Shown here piece by piece: positions 17,901-44,931 of a stretch of 64,000 bases of DNA (position 1 is the first letter of the stretch; each line of letters opens with the position of its first letter). The DNA is from a virus (lineage: Duplodnaviria; Caudoviricetes), in IMG/VR virus record IMGVR_UViG_3300037466_001335, positions 1-64,000 of that record; one strand, written 5' to 3'. The notes under the pieces are model-generated. The model saw only the letters and a list, made by a program, of their open reading frames with translations. It was not told where the DNA came from and made no database searches. The translations under genes were made by a program, and so were the position numbers.

Positions 17901-18632
17901 ATGACTGTGCATCTTGAACACATGTCCGATGAGGATATTTTTGAAAAATTTAAATCTACAACACGTCAAAACATGAAGCAATACTATAGAAAGTACGCTG
18001 ACGACCAGACTATGTTGACTCGGCTGGACGTGGCAAAGGCAAAACTCCACGAATACAACTATATGCGTAAGTACGGGGCCAAGAAAGATATCCGGCAACG
18101 TGCAAACACCCTCTGGCAGAGTATGCTGTCTAGGTGCAACGAAGAACGTCAGCTTACACCTGATGGCGTGGCGTATACGGGCGTAACATATTCAGAAAAT
18201 TTTGGTAATTTTGAGTACTTTATGAACTGGTGCATAGGGCAAGTCGGCTTTACAGATAAAGACAGCAATGGATATTCCTTTGAACTTGATAAGGACATTG
18301 TATTGAGAGGAAATAAACAATACAACGAAAACGTTTGTGTCTTTGTTCCAAAAGGGATAAATTTTTTCTTTGTTACTCGTGGTCGTAGAAGTAGTGGATT
18401 ACCTGTAGGTGTGACGCGAGACAGGCATAGCGGAAAATATATCGCACAGATGAAATGCAAGGAGTTGGGAACTCAATACATAGGAAGTTTCGCAACACCA
18501 GAATCTGCAAGAGAAGCTTATAAAAAGTTCAGAAAAGATGCTGCAAATTCCCTTGCTGACAAATGGGAAGGTAAGCTTGACCCTCGCGTGATAATCTCTT
18601 TACGCAACTACGTTGAAAATAATGGAGATTAA
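17901..18632 (+). CDS. HNH-type homing endonuclease with AP2-like C-terminus
   Basis: WQSMLSRC, FEYFMNW, ELDKDI...CVFVPKGIN, LPVGVT...KYIAQ...YIGSF. Confidence 0.75.
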   Translation: MTVHLEHMSDEDIFEKFKSTTRQNMKQYYRKYADDQTMLTRLDVAKAKLHEYNYMRKYGAKKDIRQRANTLWQSMLSRCNEERQLTPDGVAYTGVTYSENFGNFEYFMNWCIGQVGFTDKDSNGYSFELDKDIVLRGNKQYNENVCVFVPKGINFFFVTRGRRSSGLPVGVTRDRHSGKYIAQMKCKELGTQYIGSFATPESAREAYKKFRKDAANSLADKWEGKLDPRVIISLRNYVENNGD

Positions 18633-21624: not shown

Positions 21625-21876
21625 ATGGAAATTAAACTTACGTACTTTAAACAGAGTGGCAAGTACTACACCTCTGGTAAGTACAACACAAACGTACCAC
21701 CTCACGATGTGGGTACAGATCGTGCTATTGCAAATATGTATGCCATCGCTGATGAGGTGGAGTCTATGCGTTCTGCCAACAAGCTTCCTGGTTTGAATCA
21801 CGGGGCGAGCTTTTTCATTCTGGTAGACTGTGAAGATGGCTTCCCTTGTCTGCTGCGTCCGGTGGGTGAGCAATGA
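21625..21876 (+). CDS. Hypothetical protein
   Basis: GGAGG RBS; LTYFKQSGKYYTSG motif; upstream TTGCAT-N17-TACTAT. Confidence 0.65.
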   Translation: MEIKLTYFKQSGKYYTSGKYNTNVPPHDVGTDRAIANMYAIADEVESMRSANKLPGLNHGASFFILVDCEDGFPCLLRPVGEQ

Positions 21877-22391
21877 ACTCCACATCCATCAGCCTTCTCA
21901 ACGGAGGACACTTCGACTACGAAGCACCTGAGCGTAGCCGTTACACCATTGAGGACATTGCTCGTGGGCTGTCCCACACAGCACGCTTCTCAGGGCAAAC
22001 AGATCGTGTCTACACTGTCGCACAACACAGCTACCTAGTAAGCAAGCTTGTACCGCCTGAACATGCCCTAGAAGGACTTCTGCACGATGGGACAGAGGCG
22101 TTCCTGTGCGACGTTCCTAGCCCCCTGAAACGTATGCTCCCAGGCTACATTGAGCTAGAGAGACGTGCAGAAGCTGACATGTGCAAGCGCTTTGGCATGA
22201 AGTTTCCCTTCCATCCAAGTATTAAGGAAGCTGACATTCGTGTCTTTCTTGCTGAACGTAGGGACATGCAGCCATGTGTCACAGAAGTTTGTTACAAGGG
22301 TTATGAGGCTTATCCTAATAAAATTATTGCATGGGATAGCCACATGAGCTATATTTACTTTATGCGCAGATTTAATGAATTGACAAAATAA
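21873..22391 (+). CDS. HD-domain phosphohydrolase (5'-deoxynucleotidase-like)
   Basis: RFSGQT...YTVAQHS...LLHDGTEA...DVPSPLK...ADIRVFLAE. Confidence 0.85.
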   Translation: MNSTSISLLNGGHFDYEAPERSRYTIEDIARGLSHTARFSGQTDRVYTVAQHSYLVSKLVPPEHALEGLLHDGTEAFLCDVPSPLKRMLPGYIELERRAEADMCKRFGMKFPFHPSIKEADIRVFLAERRDMQPCVTEVCYKGYEAYPNKIIAWDSHMSYIYFMRRFNELTK

Positions 22392-22400
22392 GGAGAACTA

Positions 22401-23387
22401 ATGATTGTATTAAGCTTGTTTGATGGTATGTCTTGTGGTCGTATTGCTCTTGAACGTGCAGGTATTGAAGTGACTAAATACTTTTCCAGTGAGATTGATA
22501 AGCACGCTATCAAAGTTAGCAAAGCTAATTGGAGTGATGTGATTCATATTGGGGATGTTACTAAGGTGCGTTTTGAGGGTGGTGTGCTGTACACAGAGAA
22601 TGGTGATTATGCCGTAGGCAACATTGATTTACTGATTGCAGGTAGTCCCTGTCAAGGTTTTTCAATGGCAGGCAAACAACTCGCTTTTGATGATGAACGA
22701 AGCATGTTGTATTTTGAGTTTGAGAGAATCAAAGATGAGGTCAATCCTTCTTACTTTTTGCTTGAGAACGTCAAAATGAAACAAGAATACAAGGATGTAA
22801 TCACTGAACGACTAGGGGTGCTTCCCGTCGCAGTCAACTCAAACCTTGTGTCTGCGCAAAATCGATATCGCATTTATTGGTCAAACTTACCGATTGAGCA
22901 GCCTAAAGATAAAGGAATCGTATTAAAGGATGTTCTAGAGACTCTAGTAGACACCAAGTATCTTATCAAAGGTGGTAGGCTGGAATGGTTGAATAAGTTT
23001 GGTGATGTCAAGGAGAAAGATGGGTATGTGGCTTTCAATCCAATTAAGGCTAAATGCTTGACGGTTCGGGCCGAACCGTCCTGGAACTGCACCTACATCG
23101 TACAATGGCCTCACGGTAGTAACTCTGGCGGGTTTCGAGCACTTGACGGTAAGACACCAGCACTTACCACGTCTGCTTGGGAGCACAACAATTTACTGCT
23201 GAAAGAGGGGACGGTAAGGAAGCTAACACCTGTGGAGTGTGAACGCCTACAAACCGTACCAGACAATTACACTGCTCATGTGTCAGATAGCCAACGGTAC
23301 AAGATGTTGGGAAACGGCTGGACAGTGGATGTTATCGCGCATATCTTTGAAGGTATTAAACAACAATCTGAAAAATTGGTTGCATAA
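22401..23387 (+). CDS. C5 cytosine DNA methyltransferase
   Basis: SLFDGMSCG, GSPCQGFS, ENV, QNRYRIYW, RKLTPVECERLQ, YKMLGNGW. Confidence 0.92.
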   Translation: MIVLSLFDGMSCGRIALERAGIEVTKYFSSEIDKHAIKVSKANWSDVIHIGDVTKVRFEGGVLYTENGDYAVGNIDLLIAGSPCQGFSMAGKQLAFDDERSMLYFEFERIKDEVNPSYFLLENVKMKQEYKDVITERLGVLPVAVNSNLVSAQNRYRIYWSNLPIEQPKDKGIVLKDVLETLVDTKYLIKGGRLEWLNKFGDVKEKDGYVAFNPIKAKCLTVRAEPSWNCTYIVQWPHGSNSGGFRALDGKTPALTTSAWEHNNLLLKEGTVRKLTPVECERLQTVPDNYTAHVSDSQRYKMLGNGWTVDVIAHIFEGIKQQSEKLVA

Positions 23388-23657
23388 GGAGCTTACAAAA
23401 TGAAAGATTTTCTGTATTGTGCCGCTGTTACGATTGTTATGCTGCTTGTTGGTATTGGGATTCTGCCGGATATGGTGGATGTATGAATTTCTATGTCATG
23501 TGTTTCATCTGCGGGTATATGATTGGGCAGACGTTTATTTATTGGTATTGTTAAGGAGGGTGTATGAAGATTTATGTTGTAATTGTAAAAGATGGCTCAG
23601 ACACTTGGGCTGCTTGTGATTGGGCACCGTTTACTATTGCGCTTGTAGGAGGGTGAT

Positions 23658-23927
23658 GTGGCAAGGAAGACAACACAAGAAGAAATTGACGAGGCAAATC
23701 GACTTCGTGCTGAAGGATTCACTATGGAGGATGTTGCTGAGCGCCTTGGCAGGTCAACACCTTGGGTGTACAAACACACAGACAACACGGGTAAACGAGG
23801 TAAGACTGAGCACCTGACTCTGAAGCAGATTACAGTTGAGGAGAATAAGAAGCTGAAAGATGCTAAGAAGAAGCTTAGAGAAGTTACTTGCATTCCAGTT
23901 GTTTATGGAGGATATAACACAGTATGA
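23658..23927 (+). CDS. HTH DNA-binding protein
   Basis: LRAEGFTMEDVAERLGRSTPWV helix-turn-helix. Confidence 0.7.
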   Translation: MARKTTQEEIDEANRLRAEGFTMEDVAERLGRSTPWVYKHTDNTGKRGKTEHLTLKQITVEENKKLKDAKKKLREVTCIPVVYGGYNTV

Positions 23928-24115
23928 CTAACGACATCATACGTTACGAGGTGAATGAACAAGGGGAGCTTCCTCTTTCTTATGGCAGGTATGTGAGGTT
24001 CGAGGATTATGAGGATAGGGTGCAGTGGCTTCTAGAGAAAGTTACGCGGCTTGAGACAAGATTGAGGGATTGTTACGATGATTACACTCACGAATACGAA
24101 TTTTGGGATATGTGA
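23924..24115 (+). CDS. Hypothetical protein
   Basis: ATGA-coupled small ORF. Confidence 0.55.
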   Translation: MTNDIIRYEVNEQGELPLSYGRYVRFEDYEDRVQWLLEKVTRLETRLRDCYDDYTHEYEFWDM

Positions 24116-24288
24116 TGGAGATTATTAAATATCATCGCAGAGATGGGAATATGGTTGTTGCAGAGGATGGCTTTTGGGTGAAGACTGATGATCATCTTGC
24201 CATTGTTGAGAAGCTGAAGGCGGAAATTGAAGAAGCTTACGAACGAGGGTTCTTCAATGGCGCTTGTACAGGATATGGGCAGGGCTGA
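24115..24288 (+). CDS. Hypothetical protein
   Basis: Coupled small ORF starting MEIIKY. Confidence 0.55.
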   Translation: MEIIKYHRRDGNMVVAEDGFWVKTDDHLAIVEKLKAEIEEAYERGFFNGACTGYGQG

Positions 24289-24359
24289 GTTGTAGCCGTC
24301 GCTCGCAGGCTCGCTAGGGGAAGCTCTGGTGGGCTTTATTTTGGTCTGGGTGCACAATG

Positions 24360-24388
24360 TTGACAAGATGCAATAACAATGCTATAAT
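24360..24388 (+). promoter_or_regulatory. Consensus extended -10 sigma70 promoter
   Basis: TTGACA-N17-TATAAT with TG at -15/-14. Confidence 0.8.
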
Positions 24389-24435
24389 TCTCCTACTGTA
24401 AACGTCGTCTAAGAATAACGAAAGTGAGAGATAAT

Positions 24436-24888
24436 ATGGATAAGATTTGTTTTGAGTGTGATGCGCCTGCAACAGAGGAACATCATGTGATTCCAGAGAG
24501 TCTAGGCGGTACACGAACAGTGCCGCTGTGCGGGCCTTGTCACAATCGAGTGCATGACGGAAACTGGAAGCGACGGGATAACCACTCTGAGCTTACAAAG
24601 GAAGGTCTGCGGAGAGCCAAGGCTCGTGGTGTTAAACTTGGAAATCATACTAATTCAGAGTATGCAAGAAATAAAGGCAGGGAGTCACTTATTGCGAAGT
24701 CTGATGCTTTTGCTTTGAAAATATATGAAATTATTTTACCTCTGAAAAATCAAGGTTGGGTTTTGGACAAGATAGCAGAATACCTCAATTCTGAAAATAT
24801 TGCAACAGCTAGAGGTGGTAAGTGGCACAATAAATCTGTTAGTAATGTATGGATGAGGGCAAAGAGGCTACTTGAAGAAAAAGCTTGA
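24436..24888 (+). CDS. HNH endonuclease fused to serine-recombinase arm and DNA-binding domain
   Basis: CFEC...EHHVIPESLGG...LCGPCHNRVH, then TKEGLRRAKARGVKLGN...IATARGGKW, which aligns with the C-terminal half of the next gene. Confidence 0.8.
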   Translation: MDKICFECDAPATEEHHVIPESLGGTRTVPLCGPCHNRVHDGNWKRRDNHSELTKEGLRRAKARGVKLGNHTNSEYARNKGRESLIAKSDAFALKIYEIILPLKNQGWVLDKIAEYLNSENIATARGGKWHNKSVSNVWMRAKRLLEEKA

Positions 24889-24913
24889 CGAGCCCTTTTT
24901 ATTTGTATATCAT
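24885..24913 (+). promoter_or_regulatory. Sigma70 promoter of the serine recombinase
   Basis: TTGACG-N17-TATCAT. Confidence 0.6.
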
Positions 24914-24943
24914 ACACATATCTAAACGTCTCTGGAGCAAATC

Positions 24944-25609
24944 GTGACTAAATCTTTCATCGGTGTGTGCCGCGTCTCCACCCGTGAACAGGGCCAGTCT
25001 AAGAACGGCCTTGAAAGCCAACGTGCTGAAATAGAACGCTGGGCGAAGCATCATGGGTACAACCTTGTTACGATCATGGATGAGGTGATTTCTGGCAGCA
25101 CCCCTCTGAAGGATCGCCCTGTGATGTCGGCTGCTCTGCTTCTTGCTAAGAAGATGAAGGCGCAAGTTGTGGTGACGAAGAGTGATCGATGCTCTCGTGA
25201 CTTCGACATCTCCCGCGAGTTGATGCAGAAGAAAAAGCAGGTTGTGGCAATTGATCTGGGGGAGGATGCAGACAGCTTTGTTGAAATCATCTTCTCTGGC
25301 CTTGCTGAGAAAGAGCGCAAGATGATTGGTCAGCGCACTAAGGCAGGCTTGGCTGCTGCTAAGGCTCGTGGTGTTGTGCTGGGTAATCGTACCAATCTTC
25401 CTGAAGCCAGAGAAAAAGCGGCTGCTGCCATCAAAGAGAAGGCTGACAGGTTCGCTGCTCGTGTGCGTCCACCTATCGAACGCATGGTTCATTGTGGGAT
25501 GACTTATGCGGAGATTGCTCAAGAGATGAACGAGCAGCACATTCCTACAGCGCGAGGTGGAGAGTGGAGTGCAACTAGCGTTTGTCGTATCGTTTCTAGA
25601 TGGAAATAA
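24944..25609 (+). CDS. Small serine recombinase (resolvase/invertase family) with C-terminal recombinase-type HTH
   Basis: CRVST (catalytic Ser), SG...RP, DRCSRD, ERKMIGQRTKAGL, IPTARGGEW. Confidence 0.92.
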   Translation: MTKSFIGVCRVSTREQGQSKNGLESQRAEIERWAKHHGYNLVTIMDEVISGSTPLKDRPVMSAALLLAKKMKAQVVVTKSDRCSRDFDISRELMQKKKQVVAIDLGEDADSFVEIIFSGLAEKERKMIGQRTKAGLAAAKARGVVLGNRTNLPEAREKAAAAIKEKADRFAARVRPPIERMVHCGMTYAEIAQEMNEQHIPTARGGEWSATSVCRIVSRWK

Positions 25610-25638
25610 TTTTAAAAATTTACTTTAAGTAACAAAGG

Positions 25639-25682
25639 TATCGTGTTGTTTTAAAAGAAATATCTGACAAATATCGTGTTGT
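25639..25682 (+). repeat. Two direct copies of TATCGTGTTGT, 33 bp apart
   Basis: Copies at 25639-25649 and 25672-25682. Confidence 0.85.
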
Positions 25683-25684
25683 GT

Positions 25685-25716
25685 GGGAGGGTGCTTTCGG
25701 GCATGCCTCCCTTTTT
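25685..25716 (+). terminator. Rho-independent terminator ending the plus-strand block
   Basis: GGGAGG...CCUCCC stem then UUUUU. Confidence 0.8.
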
Positions 25717-25899
25717 GCATTTTTGGGATATAAAATTTTCTGTGATGTGGCCCTCTTAAGGACGAAGGGAGGGGGTCAGGTCCAAAAGTATCGCTTAGGC
25801 AGGATCACGGTCTAACAGTGCCCAGGGAGGGCCATGATCGCACCCATCTAGGGTGAAAAATATCAATTCCGCCTCATCGACAAATCTATATGCCCGTTT

Positions 25900-26329
25900 T
25901 GATCTGTGTTTTAGGCACCCTGTAGACTACTCCAAGCACCCTCTTTCGCGTCGCACAGACAGGCCTACCAGCGCACGCTTGCCATCCTCTGCCCCTCATA
26001 CACCTGCACAATCCCCTCTCCATCGCCGCCTAGGCCCCTTCCTAGCCCTCCTATCCCCATTCTGCGCAGCTTCCCTGTCTCACCATCTCTGACCCCCTCT
26101 ATCGCGCTGTCCTGCTGCTGTCCTGTGCCCTTTCGCCTGGATAGGCGCTGCATATGTGCGTACACACTGTCGAAGACAGGCTTCTCGTAGAGATGACACT
26201 GCTACGGATAGCACTTTGGCAACACATAACCCGTTGGTTATGAATAATGTCTGTCACGGAATACCTCTCGTTGATGACAAGGGTTTTCGGATTTTGAGTC
26301 AGGGACGAGTTTTCGTCAAACACAGATCA
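25900..26329. repeat. 12-bp perfect inverted repeat pair
   Basis: TGATCTGTGTTT at 25900-25911 and AAACACAGATCA at 26318-26329. Confidence 0.8.
26261..26302 (+). repeat. Site A of a dispersed 42-bp direct repeat (partner at 44890-44931)
   Basis: ATACCTCTCGTTGATGACA-N9-GGATT-N5-TCAG. Confidence 0.75.
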
Positions 26330-26439
26330 CAGTCTATAATCTAGACCTAATAGCACATCGGATAGAATAGACGCCACTCTGTCCGCAATTAACTGTTATG
26401 GCACACTATACAGCAACACAAAAGCGCTCGCACAAATGG

Positions 26440-26466
26440 CAAAAGCCACCTATACGGTGGCCTGTT
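26440..26466 (-). terminator. Terminator ending the minus-strand early block
   Basis: GGCCACC-GUAUA-GGUGGCU then UUUG. Confidence 0.7.
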
Positions 26467-26485
26467 TAGTGTTGCTTTGCATTCG

Positions 26486-26683
26486 TCAATCGGCTATATA
26501 AGCTGCATATTCCTCATCGTATGGGTACGGTAGATACACAACACCATACACATAAGCACTCTTATTCAGATTGTTGATTGCCCTAATGTACTGCGGGAGT
26601 GTTGTCTTAGTCATGCTGTATTCTACAGTCTCTGTACCATCACGTAGATTCAAGCACACAATGCGACGATTAATTGATTGCAT
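26486..26683 (-). CDS. Hypothetical protein
   Basis: ORF track; GAGG RBS. Confidence 0.55.
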   Translation of the reverse strand: MQSINRRIVCLNLRDGTETVEYSMTKTTLPQYIRAINNLNKSAYVYGVVYLPYPYDEEYAAYIAD

Positions 26684-26821
26684 CTTCTAACCTCTCTTCT
26701 AAGTCTTGCACAATGTCACTATCCACACACTTACAATCAGGACACATACCAATACTCTTAGCGTGCATGCTCCATAGCGTTGCATCACACTCTTTGCATT
26801 TGTTGCTTACGTAGACGTAGC

Positions 26822-27064
26822 TCATTGCACCACCTCAAACAGTTGATTAATTTGTTCGCACGACAACATGTAGCCTTCATTCAGACGGGCAGTCTTAGCT
26901 CGCATAATCTTGATACCCTTGTCTTGCATATGCTTAGGATTGGTGACGGTGAAGACATCGCCAACTTTAACCTTGCAAGCACGTCCAGGACCTTCAAGCT
27001 TCATGCTGAATTCAACTTTAGCCACCAAGTTAGAGAACTGTTCGAGGATCATTTTTAGCTCCAT
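26822..27064 (-). CDS. Hypothetical protein
   Basis: Start refined to MELKMI. Confidence 0.55.
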   Translation of the reverse strand: MELKMILEQFSNLVAKVEFSMKLEGPGRACKVKVGDVFTVTNPKHMQDKGIKIMRAKTARLNEGYMLSCEQINQLFEVVQ

Positions 27065-44889: not shown

Positions 44890-44931
44890 ATACCCCTCGT
44901 TGATGACATTATGTGCTGGATTCTAGCTCAG
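44890..44931 (+). repeat. Site B of the dispersed 42-bp direct repeat (partner at 26261-26302)
   Basis: ATACCCCTCGTTGATGACA-N9-GGATT-N5-TCAG. Confidence 0.75.

What the first reader, a model, noticed from the sequence alone, without database searches (positions are those of the whole stretch)
24360..25609. HNH nuclease built on a resolvase arm and DNA-binding domain, in tandem with a full serine recombinase
Seen: the 150-aa protein is a Zn-HNH domain followed by TKEGLRRAKARGVKLGN...KSDAFA...IAEYLNSENIATARGGKW. The next gene, an intact serine recombinase, carries TKAGLAAAKARGVVLGN...KADRFA...IAQEMNEQHIPTARGGEW. Each gene has its own sigma70 promoter. Established: in resolvases this region is the helix-E arm (dimer interface, DNA contact) plus the site-binding domain. 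Inference: the catalytic domain has been swapped for a nuclease. It could be a homing endonuclease aimed at recombinase-type sites, a heterodimer partner or directionality factor, or half of a two-gene mobile cassette. I know of no characterised system with this pairing.
Basis: partly seen in the sequence, partly recalled or inferred. Interest (0 to 1): 0.8.

Follow-up and report, generated by a model that had tools for sequence, protein, structure and literature searches.

The report
Homing-type HNH nuclease with recombinase DNA-binding tail
An uncultured ~89-kb phage carries a small DNA-cutting enzyme (HNH) whose DNA-recognition half descends from serine recombinases; it looks like an optional, selfish "homing" nuclease parked on the promoter of a real recombinase gene, not that recombinase's obligatory partner.

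Summary
ORF 24436-24888 (150 aa) is a compact zinc HNH domain. It is followed by the last turns of recombinase helix E, a linker helix and a recombinase-type helix-turn-helix. This tail aligns without gaps, at 40% identity (E 3e-16), to the tail of the intact serine recombinase at 24944-25609.

Both genes have consensus-like promoters. The nuclease's stop codon lies inside the recombinase's -35 box.

In this phage group the recombinase is always present. The nuclease is present in 10 contigs. It is absent, or replaced by other nuclease-type genes or a second recombinase, in 20.

The fusion is a large, unnamed family seen only in metagenomes. It has at least 100 clusters at 50% identity. Most members have no recombinase nearby. 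Some sit beside psbA or a replicative helicase.

In three unrelated contigs a recombinase lies immediately upstream. In two of them the nuclease's tail matches that neighbour far better than any other recombinase (61-73% aa; 82% nt over 274 nt in one).

Best reading (0.6): a free-standing homing-type HNH endonuclease with a captured recombinase DNA-binding module. The target site is unknown. The same scan reached similar verdicts on sister phages and on archaeal pairs.

The parts
24307..24336 (+). Terminator-like hairpin that closes the upstream block of small ORFs; left border of the variable slot
   Evidence: Scan. The same CGCTCGCAGGCTCGC...GGCGGGCTTTT element precedes the recombinase promoter directly in relatives that lack the nuclease (L035, L036, L042, L044, L051).
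24360..24388 (+). Promoter-like site of the nuclease gene (TTGACA-17-TATAAT, TG-extended)
   Evidence: 12/12 consensus match. Consensus match only; not shown to fire.
24436..24579 (+). Gene A, residues 1-48: compact zinc HNH (His-Me finger) nuclease domain
   Evidence: C5, C8, C32, C35, H16, H17, H36 and H40 are invariant or nearly so in 36 relatives. Profile hits IscB HNH at 4e-9 and McrA at 3.5e-6. AF2 gives beta-beta-alpha (E14-17, E28-31, H33-41) at pLDDT >90. dN/dS 0.018/0.87 against L003.
24580..24888 (+). Gene A, residues 49-150 plus stop: serine-recombinase-derived DNA-binding module (end of helix E, linker helix, truncated Recombinase/HTH_62-type helix-turn-helix)
   Evidence: 40% identical to B 123-219 without gaps. 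PF07508 in 30/36 and HTH_62 in 8/36 relatives. The AF2 helices H50-63, H74-105, H110-119 and H132-149 match B's H111-141 (end), H152-183, H188-197 and H210-218 in order. Weak fold matches to Tn3 resolvase DBD (Z 4.7) and a serine integrase (Z 5.0). dN/dS 0.058/1.29.
24885..24913 (+). Promoter-like site of the recombinase gene (TTGACG-17-TATCAT). The -35 box contains the nuclease's TGA stop. Right border of the variable slot.
   Evidence: In alignment A6, homology among all slot variants (different nuclease alleles, a second recombinase in L060, an unrelated 299-aa ORF in L045) begins exactly at this TTGAC.
24944..25609 (+). Gene B: intact small serine recombinase, 221 aa, GTG start
   Evidence: PF00239 8.9e-25 plus PF07508 1.4e-5. 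Catalytic residues invariant. Gin and gamma-delta resolvase are the nearest solved chains, 9e-6 to 6e-4. Present at this position in all 20 relatives found through the unlinked dNMP-phosphatase gene.
25685..25716 (+). GC-rich hairpin plus T-run after the recombinase gene (terminator-like)
   Evidence: Read from the sequence. Conserved in 8 relatives. Not listed by the pattern scan.

Best explanation
Gene A (24436-24888) encodes a free-standing, homing-type HNH endonuclease. Its N-terminal 48 residues are a minimal zinc-stabilised His-Me finger nuclease. Residues 49-150 are a DNA-binding module inherited from a small serine recombinase: the last turns of helix E, a long linker helix and a three-helix HTH.

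Inferred mechanism. The HTH reads a recombinase-type half-site in the major groove. The helix-E remnant runs back toward the centre of the site, as it does in a bound recombinase subunit. This places the HNH where a recombinase catalytic domain would sit, so the protein nicks or cuts there. Two copies on a dyad site would give a double-strand break.

The break in a phage genome that lacks the gene would be repaired from a co-infecting genome that has it. That would copy the nuclease gene and neighbouring markers. This would explain why the slot in front of the recombinase promoter, and the recombinase allele itself, are far more variable than the flanks.

The recombinase B is a resident gene of this phage group and the likely ancestral donor type of the tail. 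It is not a required partner.

Shown: domain make-up, intact catalytic motif, purifying selection, presence/absence polymorphism, slot borders, family size and contexts. Inferred: nuclease activity, the DNA site, and homing itself.
For: (1) The domains and the similarity to B are described under the observation check.

(2) The gene is optional at a fixed locus. Twenty relatives were found through the unlinked dNMP-phosphatase gene. All carry a serine recombinase here, and only 5 carry the full fusion. Counting all scans, 10 contigs have it and 20 do not.

(3) The same slot holds other mobile-looking genes. These are other alleles of the fusion (61-92% identical beside a recombinase that is 93-94% identical), an HNH with an unrelated tail (L041/48/49/54), 360-414-aa HNH_5/EndoVII proteins (L038, L061), a 299-aa ORF (L045) and a second recombinase paralogue (L060).

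(4) The slot has sharp borders at a conserved terminator and at the recombinase -35 box.

(5) Identity is mosaic. In L010 the flanks are about 90% identical, while A is 46% and the recombinase 43% identical and inverted.

(6) The gene is under purifying selection: dN/dS about 0.04 for A, as for the recombinase.

(7) The family is large. There are 194 cluster representatives at E<=1e-30, mostly 125-200 aa full-length matches. Members are unnamed and known only from metagenomes. None is present in 50,697 cultured phage records.

(8) Elsewhere, members sit at positions typical of homing endonuclease genes: directly after psbA (L068/L074), between a DNA-binding protein and DnaB helicase (L121), and beside another EndoVII/HNH gene (L139).

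(9) There is precedent for nucleases that borrow another protein's DNA-binding domain: ICP1 Odn (PMC8263062) and HEG domain shuffling (PMC10448857).
Against: No cleavage site or target was identified. No near-isogenic plus/minus pair was found that would show an empty site. The closest nuclease-less relatives have something else in the slot or a divergent recombinase.

The structural Asn of the HNH motif is missing in this branch, where the loop is 4 residues shorter. Activity is therefore plausible but unproven. Pfam scores for this protein alone are below the curated cut-offs.

In L013, L020 and L132 a recombinase gene lies immediately upstream. In L020 and L132 the tails are closely matched. 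That fits a functional two-gene module at least as well as a selfish gene, and similar archaeal pairs were noted elsewhere in this scan.
Confidence: 0.6

Rival explanations
1. Weapon against rival elements, Odn-like. The nuclease uses a recombinase-type tail to find and cut the recombination or binding sites of related serine recombinases carried by competing phages, satellites or other mobile elements. It serves the phage rather than only itself.
For: There is experimental precedent for a phage nuclease with a captured DNA-binding domain that cuts the donor's binding sites (PMC8263062, read; PMC10448857). The tails of one nuclease clade (L008, L010, L011) are closer to the type-3 recombinases of nuclease-less sister phages (35-38%) than to their own neighbour (27-30%). 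The gene is under strong purifying selection.
Against: No satellite or rival element with a matching recombinase was identified. The presence/absence pattern and slot turnover are explained equally well by plain homing. The differences in tail identity are small and rest on about 100 columns.
Confidence: 0.15
2. Functional partner of the neighbouring recombinase. It could compete for or mark the recombinase's sites, act as a directionality or regulatory factor, or cut the recombinase's site after recombination (a site-guarding or drive module).
For: Three unrelated contigs have a recombinase immediately upstream of the fusion. In two of them the tails match specifically: L132 at 73% aa and 81.8% nt over 274 nt (next best recombinase 35%), and L020 at 61% aa. 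These pairs are supported in the tree (95* and 99*). Both genes in the window have similar promoters and leaders.
Against: The recombinase occurs without the nuclease in 20 of 30 related contigs. 26 of 29 further fusion loci lack a recombinase within 4 kb. In the window's group the tail does not track its own neighbour. Gene A lacks most of helix E.
Confidence: 0.12
3. Housekeeping phage HNH, for example a terminase-associated or replication/repair nuclease whose tail is just a generic HTH.
For: Many phage HNH proteins have such roles (general knowledge). Fold matches of the tail are to many HTH families at similar Z.
Against: The gene is 8 kb from terL, on the other strand, with its own promoter. 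It is absent from most close relatives, so it cannot be essential. The similarity of the tail to recombinases is specific at sequence level.
Confidence: 0.05

Closest known systems
Free-standing HNH homing endonucleases of phages (T4 Mob proteins, I-HmuI type)
   Same: A small modular protein with an HNH nuclease at one end and a sequence-reading DNA-binding module at the other. It has its own promoter and an intergenic position, is optional among close relatives, and sits in slots where other nuclease genes come and go (the general pattern is described in PMC10448857).
   Different: The DNA-binding module is not one of the modules I know from described HEGs (NUMOD-type HTH, zinc finger or AP2, from memory). 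It is the helix-E end plus a truncated Recombinase/HTH_62 domain of serine recombinases. The HNH is minimal (about 45 aa) and lacks the structural Asn. No homing or cleavage has been shown.
ICP1 Odn, the origin-directed chimeric nuclease (PMC8263062)
   Same: A phage nuclease whose DNA-binding domain is copied from another element's site-specific DNA-binding protein. In Odn this lets it cut that protein's binding sites.
   Different: Odn's borrowed domain resembles the origin-binding replication proteins of the PLE satellite. Here an HNH is joined to a recombinase tail. The donor type is encoded next door in the same genome, not in a parasite. No target is known here.
Small serine recombinases (gamma-delta/Tn3 resolvase, Gin/Hin invertases) and the short PF00239+PF07508 'recombinase family protein' subgroup
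   Same: Gene B is one of these. Gene A shares their C-terminal third: the TKxGLxxAKARGVxLGN end of helix E and the HTH with the RGGxW motif.
   Different: Gene A has no catalytic domain and no nucleophilic serine, so it cannot recombine DNA. It lacks most of helix E.
IscB/Cas9-type and McrA HNH domains
   Same: These are the nearest solved sequences to the nuclease half, with the CxxC...HH...CxxCH..H arrangement. Foldseek places the IscB HNH at rmsd 1.5 over 43 columns.
   Different: These are domains of large RNA-guided or modification-dependent enzymes. Here the domain is guided by a protein HTH.

Membership tests
HNH / His-Me finger endonuclease | Beta-beta-alpha-metal fold with a catalytic His on the first strand and a metal-binding His/Asn on the helix | tested here: met
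   AF2 gives E14-17, E28-31, H33-41 at pLDDT >90. H16, H17, H36 and H40 are invariant in 36 relatives. Profile against PDB: IscB 4e-9, McrA 3.5e-6.
HNH / His-Me finger endonuclease | Pfam HNH or HNH_5 at the curated score | tested here: inconclusive
   This protein scores 22.3 against 27.5 (HNH_5) and 18.5 against 21.4 (HNH), both below cut-off. 31/36 and 26/36 relatives match at E<=0.01.
HNH / His-Me finger endonuclease | Structural Asn (the N of H-N-H) in the loop before the helix | tested here: not met
   The loop is 4 residues shorter here (GGTRTVPLC). The Asn is present only in distant branches (P0033, P0038, P0039, P0052). Many active His-Me fingers vary at this position (PMC5714182), so this is not disqualifying.
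HNH / His-Me finger endonuclease | Metal-dependent nuclease activity | not testable with these tools
   Needs purified protein.
Free-standing homing endonuclease gene | Present or absent at one fixed locus among otherwise collinear relatives | tested here: met
   10 contigs have it and 20 lack it in the same slot between a conserved terminator and the recombinase promoter.
Free-standing homing endonuclease gene | Modular nuclease plus a separate DNA-binding module | tested here: met
   L048 keeps the HNH (66% identical over residues 5-60) with an unrelated tail.
Free-standing homing endonuclease gene | Cuts a site in the allele that lacks the gene; its own genome is immune | not tested
   No site was identified. 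No near-isogenic empty allele was found.
Free-standing homing endonuclease gene | Super-Mendelian inheritance in mixed infection | not testable with these tools
   The phage is uncultured (IMG/VR contig).
Serine recombinase (gene A) | Resolvase catalytic domain with a nucleophilic Ser | tested here: not met
   The recombinase HMM matches A only at positions 121-223. No PF00239 hit.
Serine recombinase (gene B) | Resolvase catalytic domain with nucleophilic Ser, helix E and a C-terminal DNA-binding domain | tested here: met
   PF00239 8.9e-25 over residues 6-144. R10, S12, D81, R82 and R131 invariant. AF2 helix E at 111-141 followed by an HTH.
Odn-like chimeric nuclease (functional analogue) | DNA-binding domain homologous to that of another site-specific DNA-binding protein | tested here: met
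   40% to B in the window; 61% and 73% to the neighbouring recombinase in L020 and L132.
Odn-like chimeric nuclease (functional analogue) | Same nuclease family and donor type as Odn; cleavage of the donor's binding sites | not tested
   By my recollection Odn's nuclease is T5orf172-type; I did not verify this. The nuclease here is HNH. Odn's donor is a PLE origin-binding replication protein; here it is a recombinase. Cleavage was not tested.
Recombination directionality factor / recombinase partner | Physical or functional interaction with the recombinase | not testable with these tools
   Distribution argues against an obligate role. Binding needs an experiment.

The most novel reading that the evidence does not exclude
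The nuclease family keeps its DNA-binding tail matched to whatever serine recombinase is resident. It would do this by repeated capture or gene conversion at the conserved TKxGLxxAKARGVxLG joint. It would then cut recombinase-type sites. The purpose could be to drive itself into recombinase loci, to attack genomes carrying a rival recombinase allele, or to punish loss of a recombinase-borne element. That would be a nuclease whose specificity is 'programmed' by a neighbouring recombinase gene.
Probability: 0.25. Interest if true: 0.8.

Novelty: new variant of a known kind. Interest (0 to 1): 0.55.

Why it matters
It adds a large, unnamed and so far metagenome-only family to the homing-type HNH nucleases. 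It also adds a new kind of targeting module, the DNA-binding tail of serine recombinases.

In two unrelated contigs with an adjacent recombinase, the tail closely matches the recombinase next door. This suggests that such nucleases can pick up, or keep refreshing, their specificity from a resident site-specific recombinase. The only experimentally worked-out parallel I found is ICP1 Odn.

If the target is the recombinase's own site, this would explain why the recombinase locus of these phages is so mosaic. It would also give a natural example of a recombinase-guided nuclease, the mirror image of engineered zinc-finger or TALE recombinases.

It also warns annotators that short 'recombinase family' or 'DNA invertase' calls may be nucleases. 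One relative is labelled 'DNA invertase Pin-like' by its source.

Tried and rejected
The genomic contexts of the metagenomic family members could therefore not be read, and only IMG/VR loci were used.
- Complex prediction on B plus A gave no verdict (ipSAE 0.00 in two runs, controls not run). This is neither support nor evidence against binding.
- Foldseek of the whole A model against PDB gave nothing at E<=0.001. VIA-align gave only middling Z (<=7) to many HTH proteins, including Tn3 resolvase and a serine integrase. The structural evidence for the tail is therefore weak, and the sequence evidence carries the claim. I could not superimpose the two AF2 models, because no tool gave me their coordinates.
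- Megablast of the locus against cultured phages found no match.
- Rfam on 23000-27000 found no match.
- A scan of 185,579 species genomes with close-relative patterns found none.
- Candidate recombinase sites. The TATCGTGTTGT direct repeat behind the recombinase is not conserved in L003 and L005, whose recombinases are 94% identical. The 19-bp motif at 26261 and 44890 is exact in L036-L038, which carry other recombinase types, so it does not co-vary with the recombinase. TAAACGTCNTCT and TCTAAACG are not enriched in the window. Short inverted-repeat searches around both genes, and in L132, gave nothing convincing.
- Empty-site search. L009 against L044, and L045 against A-bearing relatives, align only within the recombinase and distant flanks.
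- AU tests of 'all nuclease tails form one clade' gave p 0.173 and 0.066. Several origins of the tail are therefore likely from local support and shared indels, but are not formally demonstrated.
- Literature searches for this fusion found no description.

Full report
WHAT IS THERE

The window is the first 64 kb of an 80.9-kb IMG/VR viral contig estimated at 63% complete. It encodes terminase, portal, DNA polymerase A, primase-helicase, RNA ligase and three tRNAs. Its terminase is about 37% identical to those of 88-97-kb Pseudomonas myoviruses.

Two co-oriented genes lie at the end of a rightward block. Gene A is at 24436-24888 (150 aa) and gene B is at 24944-25609 (221 aa, GTG start).

B is an ordinary, intact small serine recombinase. 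PF00239 scores 8.9e-25 and there is a short PF07508 piece at the end. The catalytic residues are invariant in an alignment of 38 relatives. Gin and gamma-delta resolvase are the nearest solved chains.

A residues 49-145 align to B residues 123-219 at 40% identity, without a gap, E 3e-16.

THE TWO HALVES OF GENE A

The first 48 residues carry CxxC...HH...CxxCH..H. In 36 relatives C5, C8, C32, C35, H16, H17, H36 and H40 are invariant or nearly so. Pfam scores for this protein alone are below cut-off. However, 31 of 36 relatives hit HNH_5, and a family profile hits the IscB HNH at 4e-9 and McrA at 3.5e-6. The AF2 model (pLDDT 91) shows the beta-beta-alpha unit. The structural Asn of the classical motif is missing in this branch, where the loop is four residues shorter.

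The tail consists of four helices (50-63, 74-105, 110-119, 132-149). They correspond in order to the end of B's helix E (111-141) and to B's helices 152-183, 188-197 and 210-218. Thirty of 36 relatives hit PF07508 and eight hit HTH_62, 'Recombinase-like HTH'. Fold searches give only weak HTH matches, among them the Tn3 resolvase DBD and a serine integrase. A keeps only about 14 residues of helix E, so most of the recombinase dimer interface is gone.

Between the window and L003, dN/dS is about 0.04 for both halves of A and for B. A is therefore a working gene.

IS IT TIED TO THE RECOMBINASE?

I fetched 20 relatives of this phage through an unlinked gene, the dNMP phosphatase at 21873-22391. 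All have a serine recombinase at the same place, in either orientation. These recombinases fall into at least three types that are only 29-45% identical to each other. Only five of the 20 have the full fusion.

Adding the loci found with A itself and with B, 10 contigs carry the fusion and 20 do not. In those 20 the slot varies:
- It is empty, with the terminator directly followed by the recombinase promoter (L042, L044, L051).
- It holds a 360-414-aa HNH_5/EndoVII protein (L038, L061/62).
- It holds an HNH 66% identical to A's over residues 5-60 with an unrelated tail (L041/48/49/54).
- It holds a 299-aa ORF (L045).
- It holds a second, divergent recombinase (L060).

Further HNH genes lie just downstream of the recombinase in L036 and L051-53.

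Homology among all these variants starts exactly at the recombinase -35 box, which contains A's stop codon. On the left the slot ends at a conserved terminator.

Identity is mosaic. L005 has a 93% identical recombinase but a 61% identical nuclease. L010 has about 90% identical flanks, but a 46% identical nuclease and a 43% identical, inverted recombinase.

This is the pattern expected of a homing-endonuclease slot, not of a fixed two-gene unit.

THE FAMILY AT LARGE

A word-indexed search found about 40 full-length relatives, all from metagenomes. A full HMM scan of 1.84 billion cluster representatives found 194 at E<=1e-30. Most of these are 125-200 aa and match end to end. Sampled clusters are unnamed or 'hypothetical'.

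Neither the window's protein nor the L068 family member (the one found beside psbA, below) has a full-length match in 50,697 cultured phage records. Close relatives are absent from 185,579 species genomes.

In 29 further viral loci with a full-length fusion, only three have a recombinase within 4 kb. Others sit directly after psbA (L068, L074), between a DNA-binding protein and the DnaB helicase (L121), or beside another nuclease gene (L139). From general knowledge, these are typical places for free-standing homing endonucleases.

THE LINK IS NOT NOTHING

In the three recombinase-adjacent cases outside this phage group (L013, L020, L132), the recombinase lies immediately upstream. In two of them the nuclease's tail matches that neighbour specifically:
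- In L132 it is 73% identical at protein level (90/123) and 81.8% at nucleotide level over 274 nt, against 35% for the next best recombinase.
- In L020 it is 61% identical, including a lineage-specific TGG..PFGFD linker.
- In L013 it is 43% identical to its neighbour, barely above other recombinases (41%). L013's tail is actually closest to the L132 pair (64% to A_L132).

In a tree of the tails, {A_L020, SR_L020} has 99% SH-aLRT support, and {A_L132, SR_L132, A_L013, SR_L013} has 95%. The joint always falls at the same place, just before TKxGLxxAKARGVxLG. I therefore favour one old fusion whose tail is occasionally overwritten from a neighbouring recombinase by gene conversion, rather than repeated fresh fusions.

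Formally, AU tests do not reject a single clade of all nuclease tails (p 0.17 and 0.066).

In the window's own group the tail does not track its neighbour. It is 36-47% identical to type-1 recombinases generally. One nuclease clade (L008, L010, L011) is slightly closer to the type-3 recombinases of nuclease-less sister phages than to its own type-2 neighbour.

MECHANISM

The best-supported reading is a free-standing HNH endonuclease that reads DNA through a recombinase-type half-site module and behaves as a homing gene.

The geometry is an inference from what is established for resolvase-DNA complexes. The HTH sits in the outer major groove. The helix-E end and arm lead toward the crossover point. 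The nuclease then sits where the catalytic domain would be.

A break in a genome lacking the gene, repaired from a genome carrying it, would spread the gene and co-convert the neighbourhood. That would account for the hypervariable recombinase locus.

Experimental precedent exists for nucleases that borrow another protein's DNA-binding domain to cut its sites: ICP1 Odn (PMC8263062). Domain shuffling among phage HEGs is also documented (PMC10448857).

I found no paper describing an HNH joined to a serine-recombinase tail.

WHAT REMAINS OPEN

The target site is unknown. The repeats proposed nearby do not behave like recombinase sites, and short-repeat searches gave nothing. No near-isogenic empty allele was found.

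A heterodimer test gave no verdict.

EARLIER NOTES OF THIS SCAN

Follow-up reports on sister ~89-kb phages (e1-5899548, e1-5899567, e1-5872825) and on a prophage (e1-5916207) reached the same homing-type reading. Reports on Thermoplasmata and DPANN archaea (e1-5607359, e1-5222212) describe recombinase plus HNH-tail pairs as a recurrent two-gene module. These are unchecked AI notes. I reached my reading before seeing them, and I did not test the archaeal claim. It is the main reason I keep the 'functional partner' rival at more than a token level.

VERDICT

Interest is moderate. It could become high if the nuclease proves to cut recombinase sites and to refresh its specificity from the resident recombinase.

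Noticed in passing
window 25850-26140 (and conserved part 26083-26341): A roughly 300-bp C-rich, pyrimidine-skewed non-coding tract lies between the two convergent gene blocks. Part of the gap is conserved at DNA level in L035, L036, L038 and L048. No Rfam family matches.
   Followed up: partly
window 26261-26279 and 44890-44908: The 19-bp motif ATACCNCTCGTTGATGACA occurs twice in the same orientation in the two large non-coding gaps (chance expectation 0.07). It is exact in L036-L038, which carry other recombinase types, so it is probably a regulatory element of the phage group rather than this recombinase's site.
   Followed up: partly
window 25619-25662: An AT-rich stretch lies between the recombinase stop and its terminator (AAAATTTACTTTAAG ... 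TTGTTTTAAAAGAAATATCTG). It reads as an imperfect inverted repeat and is conserved among phages with the same recombinase type. It is a candidate protein-binding site.
   Followed up: no
window 17901-18632: A 243-aa ORF with a weak AP2-domain hit (E 2e-4, below cut-off). It is related to a 417-aa ORF that sits next to the recombinase in L035. It is possibly another homing-type gene.
   Followed up: no
L060:2284-2913: In one relative the nuclease's slot is occupied by a second, very divergent serine recombinase (23% identical to B; PF00239 4.7e-11). This gives a tandem recombinase pair.
   Followed up: partly
L045:11077-11976: A 299-aa ORF with no Pfam hit occupies the slot in front of an 88% identical recombinase. 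By eye its C-terminus resembles AP2-type domains seen in homing endonucleases.
   Followed up: no
P0121 (902 aa), P0122 (683 aa) and similar: Long metagenomic proteins contain 4-7 tandem copies of the recombinase-type DNA-binding module. Proteins of 220-260 aa have an HNH plus two such modules.
   Followed up: no
L075:3465-4414: Two HNH-recombinase-tail fusion genes lie in tandem in one viral contig.
   Followed up: no
L068:2738-4426 and L074: In cyanophage-like contigs a family member sits directly downstream of psbA (photosystem II D1, phrog_182 1.5e-194). This locus is known for homing endonucleases.
   Followed up: partly
window 22401-23387: The C5 cytosine methyltransferase gene is absent from this position in most relatives. 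In L009 it lies downstream of the recombinase on the other strand. The whole stretch from the dNMP phosphatase gene to the convergent junction is an accessory, shuffled region.
   Followed up: no
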